NCBI GenBank assembly: GCA_000004985.1
Contig: GG738863.1
DNA: 64,000 nucleotides
Strand: one strand, 5' to 3'
Source: Naegleria gruberi
Lineage: Eukaryota
Numbering within the stretch: position 1 is the first letter of the stretch; each line of letters opens with the position of its first letter. This document shows, in pieces, positions 15,934 to 26,141 of this stretch. The position numbers were made by a program, and so were the translations under genes. The notes beneath the pieces were generated by a model, which saw nothing but the letters and a program-made list of their open reading frames with translations, ran no database searches and was not told where the DNA came from.

Positions 15934-18275
15934 ATGCCCAAAATTTCTCCCTCCAACGAAAAGCAAGATTTACTAAACAATCAAACCACCAACGATTCCT
16001 CAGACATTGTCCTTCCTAAAAAGAAGGTTTTCTTTGGTGGTTGCTTTTCCATGAGAATTGTAATAATCCTCCTCATTGTCTCCTTACTTTTTCTTTGTTC
16101 TTTATTTATTTGGTTGGCTTCGTTTATTGGATCGAGAACAGCTGTTAATGAGTTGACCACAAATTTGATCAATCAAGTTGGTAGAAAGATATTGGTCTTT
16201 TTGGAGAGCCAGATTGCACCTAGTTCAGGATTGGCAAAGAGCATTGCGTCAGATTTCAAGTTGGGAATTATTGATAGACAGCCACCACTTTCGTATTTGT
16301 TTGAGAAGAATAATATTTATAGACCATCGAGTGTTGGAGTGTTTTATCCTACTGAGATGTATGGTTACTTTAATTTGACATTCTTTACAAAAGGTTATCC
16401 AGAAGAAACTTTTACTGTTTATATCAAACATAGAGATTCGGTTGGTATCGAACAATGGAATGCGAGTGTTTCGACAGGTAGTTTACTGGATATTGTAGTT
16501 AATCAGACTACTCCTATAACTTGAAGATTTATGAAAGAGGGTATGTGTTAGTATCTGAACCTAATGACTTAGTTATTGGTGGTTCAATCAACACCACAGC
16601 CTTAGATAAGGTATCTCGAGTTCCCTTATTTAATTTGACAGATAAGGATTCAGGTATTTTGATGAGTGACATTCGATACAAATACGGAGGCGTTTCAAAA
16701 TCTCCAAGCACCTTTGAAATACAAAGTCTTGGAATTGATTACTATGTATCAAGAATGGAATTCAAATTAGAAAACATTGTTTGGAATGTTTTCCTTGTTG
16801 TCTACGCGGATGATATTTCCAGAACTGTGAATATTAACACTGCTATATCAGTAGGTGTTGCTGTATTTGTGATTATAGTTGGTTTATTGACAAGTGTCCT
16901 GATTGGATATATGATTACTGAGCCATTGAAATATTTAGAGAAACAATTTATGAAAATCAAAAAATTTGATTTAACAAGTGTTCATTTTACTTCGAGTAGA
17001 TTCAAGGAAATTGATGTCATGTACGAAGATTTGCATGAAATGGTAGTTTGGCTCAATGAATTCAAAAGCTTTTTACCAGAATCCATTTTTAACCAATTAA
17101 GGAATATGGAGAACTCATCTGAAAGCGGAGAAGAAACTCCAAAACAAAAGAATATGGAAAGCCAAGCCAGTGAATCAATCAAGAAACAAATCTCAACCAG
17201 AGAATCCAAAGATGGCATCGAAACATCAAGTAGACTTTCCTCCTCACACGACGGAAGTTTCCGAAACAATGAAGATCGAACCTCACTCTTCAAATTAGGA
17301 CTCTCAGAAAAGGAAGCAAGTATTGTCCTTGTAAAGATCTCTGAAATGTGTAAGAGCCTCTCCACAATTGAAATAGCTCAGTTATTTTCAAAGATTGCCT
17401 CTGGATTGAGCGCACTTGCAAAGACCATGCAAGCCGACTTGCAAATTCTTAGCATTGATCAATATCAGATATCATTCGTGACAGGAAAGAAGAAATCTAA
17501 CATTCAGGCTTTGGAAGCAGCTTTGAAAATATCCAAATCATTATCGAGCTTTTTATCAGATTATGAAAAATTGTCAATTTGTATTGGAATTACAACAGGA
17601 AAGGCCAATGTTGGAAATTTGGGAACCAATTCTTTGAGATTCTATTCGATTGTTGGTTCTCTACTTTCAAATGCTGAGAAATTATGTACATTGAGTAGAC
17701 ATTACAATATTCAAATTCTTGCAGATTCAAAATCTTTGGAATATGGCGCCAAAACTTTGTTTGTCACTCGTCCAATGGAAAGAATTGAGATAGAGAACGA
17801 AATTTTCCTTCCAAATATTTCAACAGTTTATCAGGTAATTAAGGAGAATTCATTCTCCAAAGATGAGTGGATGTAAGTTTCCTATTTTAAAACTGAAATA
17901 TTTTTCTTATTCGAAAGGTATGAATTGGAGCAACAAAAGGAAAATGTCAAGTACAAGAACTTTGAAAATGCATTCTCAGTATTTGAACAATTAGATTCGA
18001 ATAGTAATTCAGCATCCCTAGTAGAAAAAGTCAACCAATCCAAGAGTTTACTTTACGAACATTTAGAAAAATGTCCAGGAGATTCTCAAATCACCAACAA
18101 TGTTCTCAATTCATTAGATATGCTCTTTACAAAAGCTTATAATGGAAATATTGATTTAAGAAACGGTCTATTGAATTACAGAACTAGAATGGACCAGTCA
18201 ATGAGTAAGGTTACACAGGATAGCTCCTTCAATATTGTGGAAATATGCAACTCACAACATGTTAATAGTTGTTAG
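15934..18275 (+). CDS. Receptor-type adenylyl/guanylyl-cyclase-like protein: N-terminal signal-anchor TM, about 250-aa extracellular domain, second TM, Ser-rich linker, C-terminal class III cyclase-homology domain; probable exons 15934..16494, 16527..17872, 17918..18275
   Basis: Track ORFs 15934..16524 and 16521..17876 are in different frames. Removing a 32-nt GTAGTT..GAAG segment (16495..16526) joins them; otherwise it is a frameshift. GTAAGT donor at 17873 overlaps the stop and an acceptor at 17916-17917 joins the 17925..18275 ORF in frame. The cyclase-homology segment ICIGITTGKANVGNLGTNSLRFYSIVGSLLSNAEKLCTLSRHYNIQILADSK aligns to V(R)IGIHTGPVVAGVIG...YDVWGDTVNTASRME. Confidence 0.55.
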
Positions 18276-18467
18276 AATGGTGTAGCACAATTTGCGAGAA
18301 TTTTTCATTAGCATTTGACATCCAAATGTGATTAAGTAACAAGTAATAAAAAGTAGGACCTTAAAACAAAAAGACTACAGCACCTGTATAATTTCTGATA
18401 TTTAAAACAGCTGTATTCAGAATCCTTCACATTCTAAATTACAAACTCTTTACAAAAATAAGAAAAA

Positions 18468-24647: not shown

Positions 24648-25095
24648 TTTTTCTATTTTGCTACAAATTTAGGTTTTTGGTAACGTTCATGATCTCCTGA
24701 TGATGGTAATTGAAGCGATCAATGAAGCATTGATAGATATTTTTCAACTATTTTCTGGATGTCAGAAGTTATTGTGTGTTCACGATCAATATTTGTAGAT
24801 TAAATTATAAAAAACAATACTTTATTGTGCCTTTAATTGATGATCATAGTAGAGGCTTTTTTTTCAATTCGCAACGGCAAAATTCTTGTTGGCGCCACAT
24901 CACAATTACTGTTTACAAAAAATTGCATCGTCATCAACTACGTAGCAAGTCGCATTGGATTGGTTTGATGATGAAAGGTCTCAGGCATGGTGTTTTAAAC
25001 TTCATCATGATGACCAGAAATAACTTCTCTAAAAAGAAAGGACCTACAACAATAACTCTGAGATCCTACTCTGTAAATATTTGATTATCACAAAC

Positions 25096-26141
25096 ATGAT
25101 AAAGTCAATCTCTCAACCAATAATAACCGATACGAGAAGAAATAAACTCCTATCAGATTTGAATATGATAGAAAGGGATGATATAACGAAAAAGGCTTCT
25201 CCGTCAACACTGGAGAAGGAAGAACAAAAAAAGAATGAAAGTAATCAAGTAATTGTTGAAGAAGATGAAGACGATGATGATTGGATTCAATTGAGTTTTG
25301 ATGGAGCAACCTTTACTACAACAAGATCAACATTAACAATGGATAAAGATTCAATGCTATCTGTCATGTTCCAAAAGAACTCTCCATTCAAAAAGATGAC
25401 TAGAGATTTTAATCACCCAATGAAACCATACTTTGTAATGATGGACAGAAATCCACAATACTTTGAACCAATTTTAAATTATTTGAGATCTGGTGAGCTA
25501 GTAATTAATAATGGTGTAAATATTAGAGGAGTTCATTTGGAATCTAAATTTTGGGGACTTGCTGCCCTCACAGAAGAAATTGAAAAACTATTGGAACTGG
25601 AACGATTGAGTGAAATAAGGAAAAATTTACATGATAATCTCGAATGTGAATTGACAAGACAAGATATAATCAAAGCATTAATGAACTGTCCTTCTGGGAA
25701 GGGTGGATTGATAAACTCCAAGGATTAAATCTTCCAGGTATAGATTTGAGTGGACTAGACCTGTCAAGTGTAAACTTTTCCAAAACAAATCTCAAGAATG
25801 CCAACCTTTCGCGATGCACTCTCGATTTCTCAGAGATGAGAGAAACCATCATTGAGGGTTGTAACTTTTCCAATGCCCACATGTTCAAAATAATTATCAA
25901 GAATGCCAATTGTAAAAATGTAAATTTCAGTGGAGCCTCACTTCGAGGAGCTAGTATTACACATTGTGATATGAATGGAGCCAATTTCAACTCATCCGAT
26001 TTAGAACTTGCAGATCTATCCAACTCCAACCTTAGAAATGCTGATCTCTCAGGCGCATCAATGAAAGGAGTTCAATTGAAAAACTGTGTCACCACAAACG
26101 TTACACATACAAGTGCTATGGGAGGTGTCATTACAAAATAA
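25096..26141 (+). CDS. KCTD9-like protein: T1-type BTB/POZ domain followed by pentapeptide repeats
   Basis: Real ATG at 25096 (track start 25081 is TTG). BTB: WIQLSFDGATFTTTRSTL...YFVMMDRNPQYFEPILNYLRSGELV. The second track ORF 25746..26141 continues upstream in its own frame as WIDKLQGLNLPGIDLSGLDLSSVNFSKTNLKNANLSRCTL... (A(D/N)LSxx pentapeptide repeats). The two frames overlap at 25650-25728 and join via a 35-nt GTGGAT..CCAG segment (25703..25737) or a frameshift. Confidence 0.55.

What the first reader, a model, noticed from the sequence alone, without database searches (positions are those of the whole stretch)
16480..26000. Recurrent pattern: reading frames restored only by very short (20-39 nt) GT..AG segments with weak donors
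In addition to clear introns (35-170 nt, GTAAGT/GTATGT), at least six genes need removal of a tiny GT..AG segment to stay in frame. These are the ATPase (20 nt GTGAAG..TAG at 516-535), the 7TM gene (28 nt GTTATA..TAG near 22980), the cyclase (32 nt GTAGTT..AAG at 16495-16526), KCTD9-like (35 nt GTGGAT..CAG at 25703-25737), ADF-H (39 nt GTGTTG..CAG near 58465) and the zinc-cluster gene (off by 1). Possible explanations are a real class of ultra-short introns with degenerate 5' sites in this organism, frequent frameshift errors in the assembly, or widespread recent pseudogenisation. This determines how every gene model in this genome should be built.
Basis: inference. Interest (0 to 1): 0.6.

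Follow-up and report, generated by a model that had tools for sequence, protein, structure and literature searches.

The report
Fake micro-introns masking sequence lesions
The tiny "introns" in this Naegleria gruberi window are not introns: three are mis-picked splice sites of ordinary 40-79 nt introns, and three sit on small lesions in the reference sequence, so the finding is an annotation and assembly issue rather than new biology.

Summary
The window is Naegleria gruberi NEG-M (2010 JGI reference). None behaves like an intron.

- **Three are mis-picked splice sites.** Those introns give proteins colinear with homologues.
- **Three sit on lesions in the reference.**
  - KCTD9-like gene: one missing G between 25714 and 25715.
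  - Cyclase: a 226-nt deletion between 16515 and 16516.
  - Ca-ATPase: a roughly 136-nt deletion plus three 1-nt deletions at 504-535, which removes the essential MVTGDN motif.
- **Independent check.** An Illumina assembly of N. gruberi (ENA ERZ929261, 97-99% identical) has intact KCTD (348 aa) and cyclase (722-aa ORF) genes.
- **NCBI models.** They hide or truncate at these lesions: a 20-nt intron, a 14-nt intron and a 196-aa stump.
- **Chance.** About 70% of random 1-nt frameshifts placed in intact ORFs of this window can be "rescued" by a 14-40 nt GT..AG segment, so the pattern is what chance gives.

I could not decide whether the lesions are Sanger, cloning or assembly errors, or real NEG-M mutations. 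Interest is low.

The parts
504..535 (-). Ca-ATPase lesion patch. A roughly 136-nt deletion follows, which removes KKSGIFVRMVTGDN...KMSDD.
   Evidence: P0001 reads DPLR|TMYQIDD. Orthologues P0002-P0004 and human PMCA1 carry 53-62 more residues here, including MVTGDN. The orthologous ORF in L001 has no intron.
16495..16526 (+). The actual feature is a blunt 226-nt deletion junction between 16515 and 16516 (CCT|ATAAC). It removes 75 codons plus 1 nt of the extracellular domain.
   Evidence: N. lovaniensis P0121 residues 201-272 are unmatched. ENA contig L084 carries the 226 nt (L084 3157-3382) and a continuous 722-aa ORF, P0297. NCBI XP_002678110.1 is a 196-aa stump that ends at the lesion stop.
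17873..17917 (+). Genuine cyclase intron, 45 nt, GTAAGT..AAAG.
   Evidence: The alignment to P0121 resumes exactly after it (DEWM|YELEQQ). It is also present in genomic contig L084.
22979..23057 (-). Genuine 7TM intron, 79 nt, GTATGT..ATAG, phase 1.
   Evidence: the 79-nt splice reproduces NCBI XP_002678228.1 (P0140) exactly; orthologues read FILLR(V/I)GV with no room for the 17 extra residues of the 28-nt version. N. lovaniensis has a GTAAGT intron at the same position and phase.
22704..22724 (-). 7TM gene: junction of an in-frame deletion of about 228 nt (76 aa, two predicted TM helices) relative to three orthologues.
25688..25737 (+). KCTD9-like gene: 1-nt deletion, a missing G between 25714 and 25715.
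   Evidence: ENA contig L083 reads GATAAGACTCC against GATAA-ACTCC in the window, and encodes an intact 348-aa protein (P0294). With the G restored, CPSGKGGLIRLQGLNLPG aligns without gaps to N. lovaniensis CPSGKGGLLRFQGLNLTG and to distant KCTD9-like proteins.
58442..58492 (-). Genuine GMF/ADF-H intron 1, 51 nt, GTATGT..ACAG.
   Evidence: With the 39-nt version, alignment to PDB 1v6f GMF-beta shows a 4-residue insertion, SMFY; the 51-nt version equals NCBI XP_002678237.1 exactly, and the 39-nt version is not in the collection.
58366..58407 (-). Genuine GMF intron 2, 42 nt, GTAAGT..CAAG.
46060..46099 (-). Zn2Cys6 gene intron with a GTATGT donor. The CAG acceptor (35 nt) is off by one. The AAG acceptor (40 nt) gives a perfect C-x2-C-x6-C-x6-C-x2-C-x6-C motif. 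The GAG acceptor (37 nt) is also in frame.
   Evidence: Pfam Zn_clus scores 47.5 bits with the 40-nt intron and 41.0 bits with the 37-nt intron. Both give one ORF of 996 or 997 aa.

Best explanation
The short GT..AG segments are not spliceosomal introns. They fall into two groups.

**(i) Mis-picked splice sites of ordinary Naegleria introns.**
- 7TM: 79 nt instead of 28.
- GMF: 51 nt instead of 39.
- Zn-cluster: 40 nt with an AAG acceptor, instead of 35 nt with a CAG acceptor.

**(ii) Lesions in the deposited N. gruberi NEG-M reference sequence.** These really do break three reading frames:
- one missing G in the KCTD9-like gene;
- a 226-nt deletion in the membrane cyclase;
- a roughly 136-nt deletion flanked by three 1-nt deletions in the plasma-membrane-type Ca-ATPase.

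GT and AG dinucleotides are so frequent in this 33% GC DNA that a short GT..AG segment of the right length class can be found next to most frameshifts.

**Shown:** the lesions exist relative to an independent N. gruberi assembly and to orthologues, and the canonical introns fit the homologues.

**Inferred:** no splicing occurs at the tiny segments. I had no RNA reads.

**Not resolved:** whether the lesions arose in the sequencing, cloning or assembly process, or are real mutations in NEG-M.
For: **Organism:** (100% match to NCBI N. gruberi ATPase P0001 on a 467,654-bp scaffold).

**ATPase**
- P0001 uses the 20-nt splice but lacks 53-57 residues that P0002-P0004 have, and that human PMCA1/2 have, including MVTGDN.
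- DNA alignment to the intron-free orthologue L001 shows GT-GAAGTTA-TGATGCTGT-AGACAATGT, then the deletion.
- In the metagenome scan, the listed full-length PMCA matches span at least about 970 nt, against 936 nt for the query.

**Cyclase**
- Residues 201-272 of P0121 are missing, and the same block is present in the 14 retrieved paralogues and orthologues, truncated in one N. lovaniensis model, P0127.
- ENA contig L084 (97.4-98.1% identical) holds the 226 nt and a 722-aa ORF.

**KCTD**
- ENA contig L083 (98.6% identical overall; 1 SNP within the gene) has one extra G and a 348-aa ORF.
- The restored sequence aligns without gaps to N. lovaniensis DNA and to distant homologues.

**7TM:**. **GMF:**. 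**Zn-cluster:**

**Donors:** all five validated introns start GTAAGT or GTATGT. None of the five alleged ones does.

**Chance:** 70% rescue rate in simulation.

**Same artefact in a sister genome:** two N. lovaniensis models hide 1-nt frameshifts under false introns of 137 nt and about 35 nt.

**Controls:** five single-exon ORFs of the window equal their NCBI models. The two with an ENA cluster member have near-equal length, 560 vs 571 aa and 662 vs 663 aa.
Against: - I had no RNA-seq reads, so absence of splicing at the tiny segments is inferred from protein colinearity, not observed.
- The ENA contigs differ from the window by 1.4-2.6%. They come from another strain or haplotype, so they show what the intact gene looks like but not what NEG-M DNA actually contains.
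- The ATPase lesion is judged only against orthologues of 82% identity or less.
- The Zn-cluster intron choice (40 vs 37 nt) rests on motif spacing and a 6.5-bit Pfam difference only. Neither full-length variant is in the protein collection.
Confidence: 0.9

Rival explanations
1. A genuine class of ultra-short (14-39 nt) spliceosomal introns with degenerate donors exists in N. gruberi and is spliced at these sites.
For: Each segment is GT..AG bounded and its removal opens the frame. The NCBI models for the ATPase and KCTD genes use such segments.
Against: - Removal deletes conserved residues (KCTD), or leaves 53-75 conserved residues missing.
- The spliced ATPase would lack the MVTGDN motif.
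- An independent assembly has uninterrupted ORFs at two of the sites.
- The donors GTGAAG, GTTATA, GTAGTT, GTGGAT and GTGTTG do not match the GTAWGT of the validated introns.
- The lengths are scattered (14, 20, 28, 32, 35, 39), not a narrow class.
- 70% of random frameshifts are equally 'rescuable'.
Confidence: 0.02
2. Origin of the three lesions, sub-hypothesis A. They are errors of the 2010 Sanger shotgun reference: low-coverage or low-quality reads, clones with deletions selected in E. coli, or mis-joins. NEG-M DNA is intact.
For: - Three 1-nt deletions within 25 nt next to the ATPase deletion look like a patch of poor base calls.
- Apart from the single lesion, each gene is a pristine long ORF.
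- The KCTD gene differs from L083 by only one SNP plus the missing G.
- Inference from general knowledge: all lesion-bearing genes encode membrane proteins or a pentapeptide-repeat protein. Such inserts are plausibly counter-selected in E. coli plasmid libraries.
- A PacBio-only sister genome shows the same kind of hidden indel errors.
Against: - A clean, blunt 226-nt deletion without microhomology is not a typical base-calling or assembler error. It would need deletion-bearing clones to dominate at that site.
- Three deletions of 136-228 nt in 23 kb is many for what I recall as a roughly 8x Sanger assembly (my recollection; the genome paper was not retrievable).
- No reads or quality values were available to me.
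Confidence: 0.5
3. Origin of the three lesions, sub-hypothesis B. They are real, recent mutations in NEG-M, in one or all genome copies. They would be null alleles or young pseudogenes tolerated in a long-cultured, probably polyploid axenic strain, or natural loss-of-function polymorphisms.
For: - Two of the three broken genes belong to multi-copy families: many cyclase paralogues and several PMCA-type ATPases in N. gruberi (P0021, P0023).
- The blunt 226-nt junction looks like end-joining repair.
- A further in-frame deletion of about 228 nt in the 7TM gene suggests that deletions of this size do occur in this lineage.
- The intact copies come from a genome that is 1.4-2.6% divergent, so strain-specific lesions are possible.
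Against: - Each gene has exactly one lesion site and otherwise conserved sequence.
- The KCTD9-like gene showed no close paralogue in my search: the next hit after its own model is the 68%-identical N. lovaniensis orthologue.
- The clustered 1-nt deletions in the ATPase are unusual for a natural mutation.
- No second, intact N. gruberi haplotype copy is in the protein collection.
Confidence: 0.45
4. The frames are restored at the RNA or translation level, by programmed ribosomal frameshifting, transcriptional slippage or insertional RNA editing.
For: None specific. Frames do break in otherwise intact genes.
Against: - Recoding cannot supply the 75 and about 46 missing codons.
- The KCTD site (TTGATAAACTCC) has no slippery heptamer and no long homopolymer.
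- The intact allele simply has one more G.
Confidence: 0.01

Closest known systems
Spurious gene-model features created when automatic annotation meets sequence errors in draft genomes (documented for the rhesus macaque draft and Gnomon, PMC3426473)
   Same: A frameshift or missing sequence in the assembly is absorbed by the gene model. Here that means a 20-nt and a 14-nt 'intron' and a truncated 196-aa model in the NCBI/JGI N. gruberi set, plus a 137-nt and a roughly 35-nt false intron in N. lovaniensis models.
   Different: That paper describes spurious exons, truncations and pseudogene calls in a vertebrate. The micro-intron form seen here is my own observation in Naegleria annotations. For N. 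gruberi it is not yet shown that the sequence, rather than the strain, is at fault.
Ordinary Naegleria spliceosomal introns (median 80 bp reported for N. lovaniensis, PMC6125883)
   Same: The five validated introns of the window (40, 42, 45, 51 and 79 nt) have GTAAGT/GTATGT donors. One is conserved in position and phase with N. lovaniensis.
   Different: The alleged segments are shorter (20-39 nt), have non-consensus donors and disrupt colinearity with homologues.
Known ultra-short intron classes: Paramecium (about 20-35 nt), Stentor (15-16 nt), Bigelowiella natans nucleomorph (18-21 nt). These figures are from my own knowledge, not checked here.
   Same: Length range and GT..AG ends.
   Different: Those classes are genome-wide, have a narrow length distribution and a strong consensus, and their removal gives colinear proteins. 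Here the lengths are scattered, the donors are degenerate, and removal damages conserved domains.
Young unitary pseudogenes and segregating loss-of-function alleles
   Same: A single disabling indel in an otherwise conserved ORF, with an intact copy in a conspecific genome.
   Different: Not demonstrated to exist in the organism's DNA. There are no additional disabling changes or signs of relaxed constraint.

Membership tests
U2-type GT-AG spliceosomal intron | GT at the 5' end and AG at the 3' end | tested here: met
   This is trivially met, since 70% of random frameshifts have such a segment nearby.
U2-type GT-AG spliceosomal intron | Donor matches the organism's consensus, here GTAAGT/GTATGT in 5 of 5 validated introns of the window | tested here: not met
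   The donors are GTGAAG, GTTATA, GTAGTT, GTGGAT and GTGTTG.
U2-type GT-AG spliceosomal intron | Removal yields a protein colinear with orthologues, with no conserved residues lost or missing | tested here: not met
   - ATPase lacks 53-57 aa, including MVTGDN.
- Cyclase lacks about 72-75 aa.
- KCTD loses the conserved GG-LIRLQGLNLP stretch.
- 7TM gains 17 aa and GMF gains 4 aa that are absent from homologues.
U2-type GT-AG spliceosomal intron | Absent from mature mRNA (split reads or cDNA) | not testable with these tools
   No N. gruberi transcript data were reachable. The clusters of the relevant proteins hold only NCBI and ENA genomic members.
Ultra-short intron class (ciliate or nucleomorph type) | Narrow, genome-typical length distribution with its own consensus | tested here: not met
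   Lengths are 14 (JGI), 20, 28, 32, 35 and 39 nt, with no shared motif. This is only a 64-kb sample.
Assembly or sequence error | An independent assembly of the same species has a different, frame-preserving sequence at the site | tested here: met
   KCTD has an extra G and the cyclase has an extra 226 nt, both in ENA ERZ929261. The ATPase was not covered.
Assembly or sequence error | Reads of the same strain contradict the consensus | not testable with these tools
The ENA contigs are 1.4-2.6% divergent, so probably not the same haplotype or strain.
Pseudogene | Several independent disabling mutations, or relaxed constraint along the gene | tested here: not met
   Each gene has one lesion site. 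Elsewhere there are long intact ORFs with 82% (ATPase) or roughly 99% (cyclase, KCTD) amino-acid identity to intact relatives. This does not exclude a very young pseudogene.

The most novel reading that the evidence does not exclude
The lesions are real in NEG-M DNA. In that case the reference laboratory strain carries several fresh disabling deletions (136-228 nt) and a frameshift in membrane and signalling genes within about 25 kb. That would be a footprint of mutation accumulation, or of sheltered null alleles, in a long-term axenic and probably polyploid amoeba. The oddly similar deletion sizes (226 and about 228 nt) might then reflect a specific deletion mechanism.
Probability: 0.4. Interest if true: 0.3.

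Novelty: not a real feature. Interest (0 to 1): 0.12.

Why it matters
The value is practical rather than conceptual.

- Gene models for N. gruberi, and as shown here for N. lovaniensis, should not be allowed introns shorter than about 40 nt or with non-GTAWGT donors.
- Intron-length statistics taken from the public annotations will carry a spurious short tail.
- At least three NCBI proteins from this window are wrong:
  - XP_002678219.1, the ATPase, lacks the TGD motif.
  - XP_002678113.1, the KCTD protein, has a 14-nt patch.
  - XP_002678110.1 is a 196-aa cyclase stump.
- Comparative studies that use these proteins would infer false domain losses.
- If the lesions turn out to be real, they say something modest about genome decay in the laboratory strain.

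Tried and rejected
- **Chimeric protein query.** I combined cyclase, 7TM and KCTD to save a capped search. It returned only cyclase relatives and missed the N. gruberi self-hits that I later found (P0140, P0144, P0294). Its negative results are worthless, and I wrongly suspected for a while that these genes had no NCBI models.
- **The look-up of encoding contigs for N. gruberi proteins.** Not on record, so I could not obtain the official exon tables.
- **Metagenome scan with the ATPase fragment.** Only distant PMCA genes (64% identity or less) and no N. gruberi-like contig.
- **Exact look-ups.** I tried both halves of the ATPase ORF, both 7TM exon ORFs, the truncated KCTD ORF and the GMF exon-1 ORF. 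None is in the collection, so the ATPase and 7TM sites have no independent N. gruberi sequence.
- **Zn-cluster full-length variants.** Not in the collection.
- **Literature searches.** I found no statement on N. gruberi minimal intron length or reference errors. The 2010 genome paper is not held. PRJEB11402, the source of the ENA contigs, is not mentioned in any held paper.
- **Rejected: deletions as footprints of mis-spliced cDNA.** The 226-nt segment is not GT..AG bounded.
- **Rejected: deletions as stripped assembly gaps.** The window has no N, and P0001 reads through the junction without X.
- **Rejected: programmed frameshifting at the KCTD site.** There is no slippery sequence.
- **Correction to notebook entry 4.** The cyclase junction is 16515|16516, not 16506|16507.
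Full report
**Identity of the window.** The left-hand gene matches NCBI 'P-type II calcium ATPase [Naegleria gruberi]' (P0001, XP_002678219.1) at 100% identity, on a 467,654-bp scaffold. Five single-exon ORFs of the window equal NCBI N. gruberi NEG-M models exactly. The window is therefore the 2010 JGI reference of N. gruberi NEG-M. It has 31-39% GC by 2-kb window, is gene dense, and contains no N.

**The observation.** Deleting each opens the frame. 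The question is whether that means anything. I placed 1,500 random 1-nt deletions and 1,500 insertions into ten intact ORFs of this window. I then asked whether some 14-40 nt GT..AG segment within 60 nt could be removed so that the frame stays open for 150 nt either side. This worked in 70% of cases, with nearly two solutions on average. A frame-restoring micro-segment is thus what one expects next to any frameshift in this DNA, and it is not evidence of splicing.

**Ca-ATPase (516-535, minus strand).**
- Three orthologues at 82%, 80% and 75% identity (P0002, P0003, Willaertia P0004) have 57 residues between DPLR and IDxILPRLQ, where P0001 has 4. The extra stretch is VEVIDAVKQCKKSGIFVRMVTGDNILTAQHIARECGIL...KMSDDE.
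- Human PMCA1 and PMCA2 have about 60 residues there.
- The listed full-length hits of the metagenome scan are correspondingly longer than the query.
- The missing piece contains the conserved MVTGDN motif of P-type ATPases, so the 'spliced' product could not work.
- The orthologous gene in ENA contig L001 is one uninterrupted 975-codon ORF.
- At the DNA level the '20-nt intron' is part of degraded coding sequence. The window reads CGTG-TGAAGTTA-TGATGCTGT-AGACAATGT, against CGTGTTGAAGTTATTGATGCCGTCAAGCAATGT in the orthologue. That is VEVIDAV(R/K)QC with three single-base deletions, followed by a deletion of about 136 nt.

**Cyclase (16495-16526).**
- The 14 retrieved relatives (N. lovaniensis, N. 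fowleri, N. gruberi paralogues, Willaertia) carry a block of about 75 residues between NQTTP.. and ..L(K/S)xxGxGYVLVSE, truncated in one N. lovaniensis model, P0127. In tblastn, residues 201-272 of P0121 have no counterpart in the window.
- The 196-aa ORF that ends at the lesion stop is itself an NCBI 'predicted protein' (XP_002678110.1). Its 90% cluster contains a 722-aa ENA protein, P0297.
- The ENA contig L084 (ERZ929261, run ERR1078381) aligns to window 13301-18268 at 96.4-98.1% identity. It contains 226 extra nucleotides between window positions 16515 and 16516.
- The junction is blunt (CCT|ATAAC), shows no microhomology, and the missing segment is not GT..AG bounded.
- The rest of the gene is intact, including a genuine 45-nt GTAAGT intron at 17873-17917.

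**KCTD9-like gene (25703-25737).**
- The NCBI model (XP_002678113.1, partial) patches the same frame break with a different micro-intron of 14 nt at 25688-25701, giving ..ALMN|WWIDKLQ... Two annotators picking two different 'introns' for one break is itself telling.
- Its cluster holds P0294, a 348-aa ENA protein. That protein is identical to the window's two reading frames joined, except for one added residue..CPSGKGGLIRLQGLNLPG...
- Contig L083 is 98.6% identical to window 24900-27102. Within the gene it differs by one SNP and one extra G: GATAAGACTCC against GATAA-ACTCC.
- With the G restored, the sequence aligns without gaps to N. lovaniensis DNA (CPSGKGGLLRFQGLNLTG) and to distant KCTD9-like proteins (CPSGSANLRFQGLSLSG and others).

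**7TM gene (28 nt near 22980).** The resulting 79-nt intron (22979-23057) uses the same acceptor, reproduces NCBI XP_002678228.1 exactly, and gives ..LLFIA|LRLGVV... This matches N. lovaniensis FFFILLRVGV and Willaertia IMFILLRIGV. N. lovaniensis has a GTAAGT intron at the same position and phase. The 28-nt version would add 17 residues that no orthologue has.

**GMF/ADF-H gene (39 nt near 58465).** A GTATGT donor 12 nt upstream gives a 51-nt intron (58442-58492) and the protein ..PYDQ|MMYSR... This equals NCBI XP_002678237.1 exactly. The 39-nt version is not in the collection, and it shows a 4-residue insertion (SMFY) against solved GMF-beta and GMF-gamma structures.

**Zn-cluster gene ('off by 1').** I located it at 44098-47128 on the minus strand. 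The donor is a canonical GTATGT at 46099. The first acceptor, CAG (35 nt), is off by one. AAG (40 nt) gives a perfect C-x2-C-x6-C-x6-C-x2-C-x6-C motif and the better Pfam score, 47.5 against 41.0 bits for the 37-nt GAG variant. AAG acceptors are normal here, occurring in 3 of the 5 validated introns.

**Synthesis.** The five validated introns of the window are 40, 42, 45, 51 and 79 nt long. All begin GTAAGT or GTATGT, and none of the alleged donors does. Three of the six cases are therefore splice-site mis-assignments. The other three are true frame breaks caused by lesions in the deposited sequence, which the public gene models either hide under micro-introns or truncate at. The sister genome N. 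lovaniensis is PacBio RSII only (PMC6125883) and shows the same artefact. A 1-nt frameshift in its KCTD orthologue is hidden by a 137-nt false intron. A TTTT-to-TTT contraction in its 7TM orthologue is hidden by a false intron of about 35 nt.

**What remains open.**
- The ENA contigs differ from the window by 1.4-2.6%, so they come from another strain or haplotype. They prove that the intact genes exist in the species, but not what NEG-M DNA contains.
- For a sequencing, cloning or assembly artefact: the cluster of three 1-nt deletions beside the ATPase deletion, the otherwise pristine ORFs, and the near-identity of KCTD apart from the missing G. As speculation, all affected inserts encode membrane or pentapeptide-repeat proteins, which E. 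coli libraries may counter-select.
- For real mutations: the clean, blunt 226-nt junction, the membership of two genes in large families, and a further in-frame deletion of about 228 nt in the 7TM gene.
- I put these at roughly even odds. NEG-M reads or four PCR products would settle it.

**Verdict.** No new class of introns is present. The finding is explained by ordinary introns plus reference lesions and annotation patches. It has practical value for gene modelling in Naegleria and low scientific novelty.

Noticed in passing
window 22704-22724 (-), 7TM gene: The N. gruberi 7TM protein lacks about 76 residues (about 228 nt, in frame, two predicted TM helices) that are present in N. lovaniensis, Willaertia and an environmental relative. 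The size is almost the same as the 226-nt cyclase deletion.
   Followed up: partly
L002 5744-6837 (-) and L002 about 11100-11160 (+), N. lovaniensis PYSW02000017.1: Two N. lovaniensis gene models hide 1-nt frameshifts of the PacBio-only assembly under false introns. The KCTD orthologue P0147 loses 47 aa via a 137-nt 'intron'. The 7TM orthologue P0141 loses 16 aa via a roughly 35-nt 'intron' at a TTTT-to-TTT site.
   Followed up: yes
window 15934-16524 (+): NCBI XP_002678110.1 ('predicted protein', 196 aa) is only the N-terminal stump of the membrane cyclase and ends at the stop created by the deletion. Pfam finds no domain in either half of this cyclase, although UniRef calls its relatives guanylate cyclase domain proteins.
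   Followed up: partly
window 44098-47128 (-): A 996-aa protein with a fungal-type Zn(2)-Cys(6) binuclear cluster (Pfam Zn_clus, 47.5 bits) in a heterolobosean, preceded by a long Q/N/H-rich low-complexity N-terminus.
   Followed up: partly
window 19935-20007 (-) and 22085-22157 (-): tRNA-Ile(AAU) and tRNA-Ala(UGC) genes lie between protein-coding genes.
   Followed up: no
window 34615-35385 (+); also L001 7947-8753: A protoglobin-family gene (Pfam PF11563, E 1.7e-41). A protoglobin gene also lies next to the ATPase orthologue in the related ENA contig L001, although gene order differs from the window.
   Followed up: no
window about 100-200 (-), ATPase C-terminal part: The Naegleria/Willaertia PMCA-type ATPases share a 9-13-residue insertion ([13 protein letters not shown] in N. 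gruberi) that is absent from human PMCA in the aligned transmembrane region.
   Followed up: no
L083 and L084 vs window 24900-27102 and 13301-18268: Differences between the ENA N. gruberi contigs and the reference are patchy: 0.15% over the first 1.3 kb of L083, but about 5% over its last 330 nt. An in-frame 3-nt indel lies in the RNase T2 gene (about 26753), and intergenic homopolymer indels are present. This suggests a recombining population or a mosaic second haplotype.
   Followed up: partly
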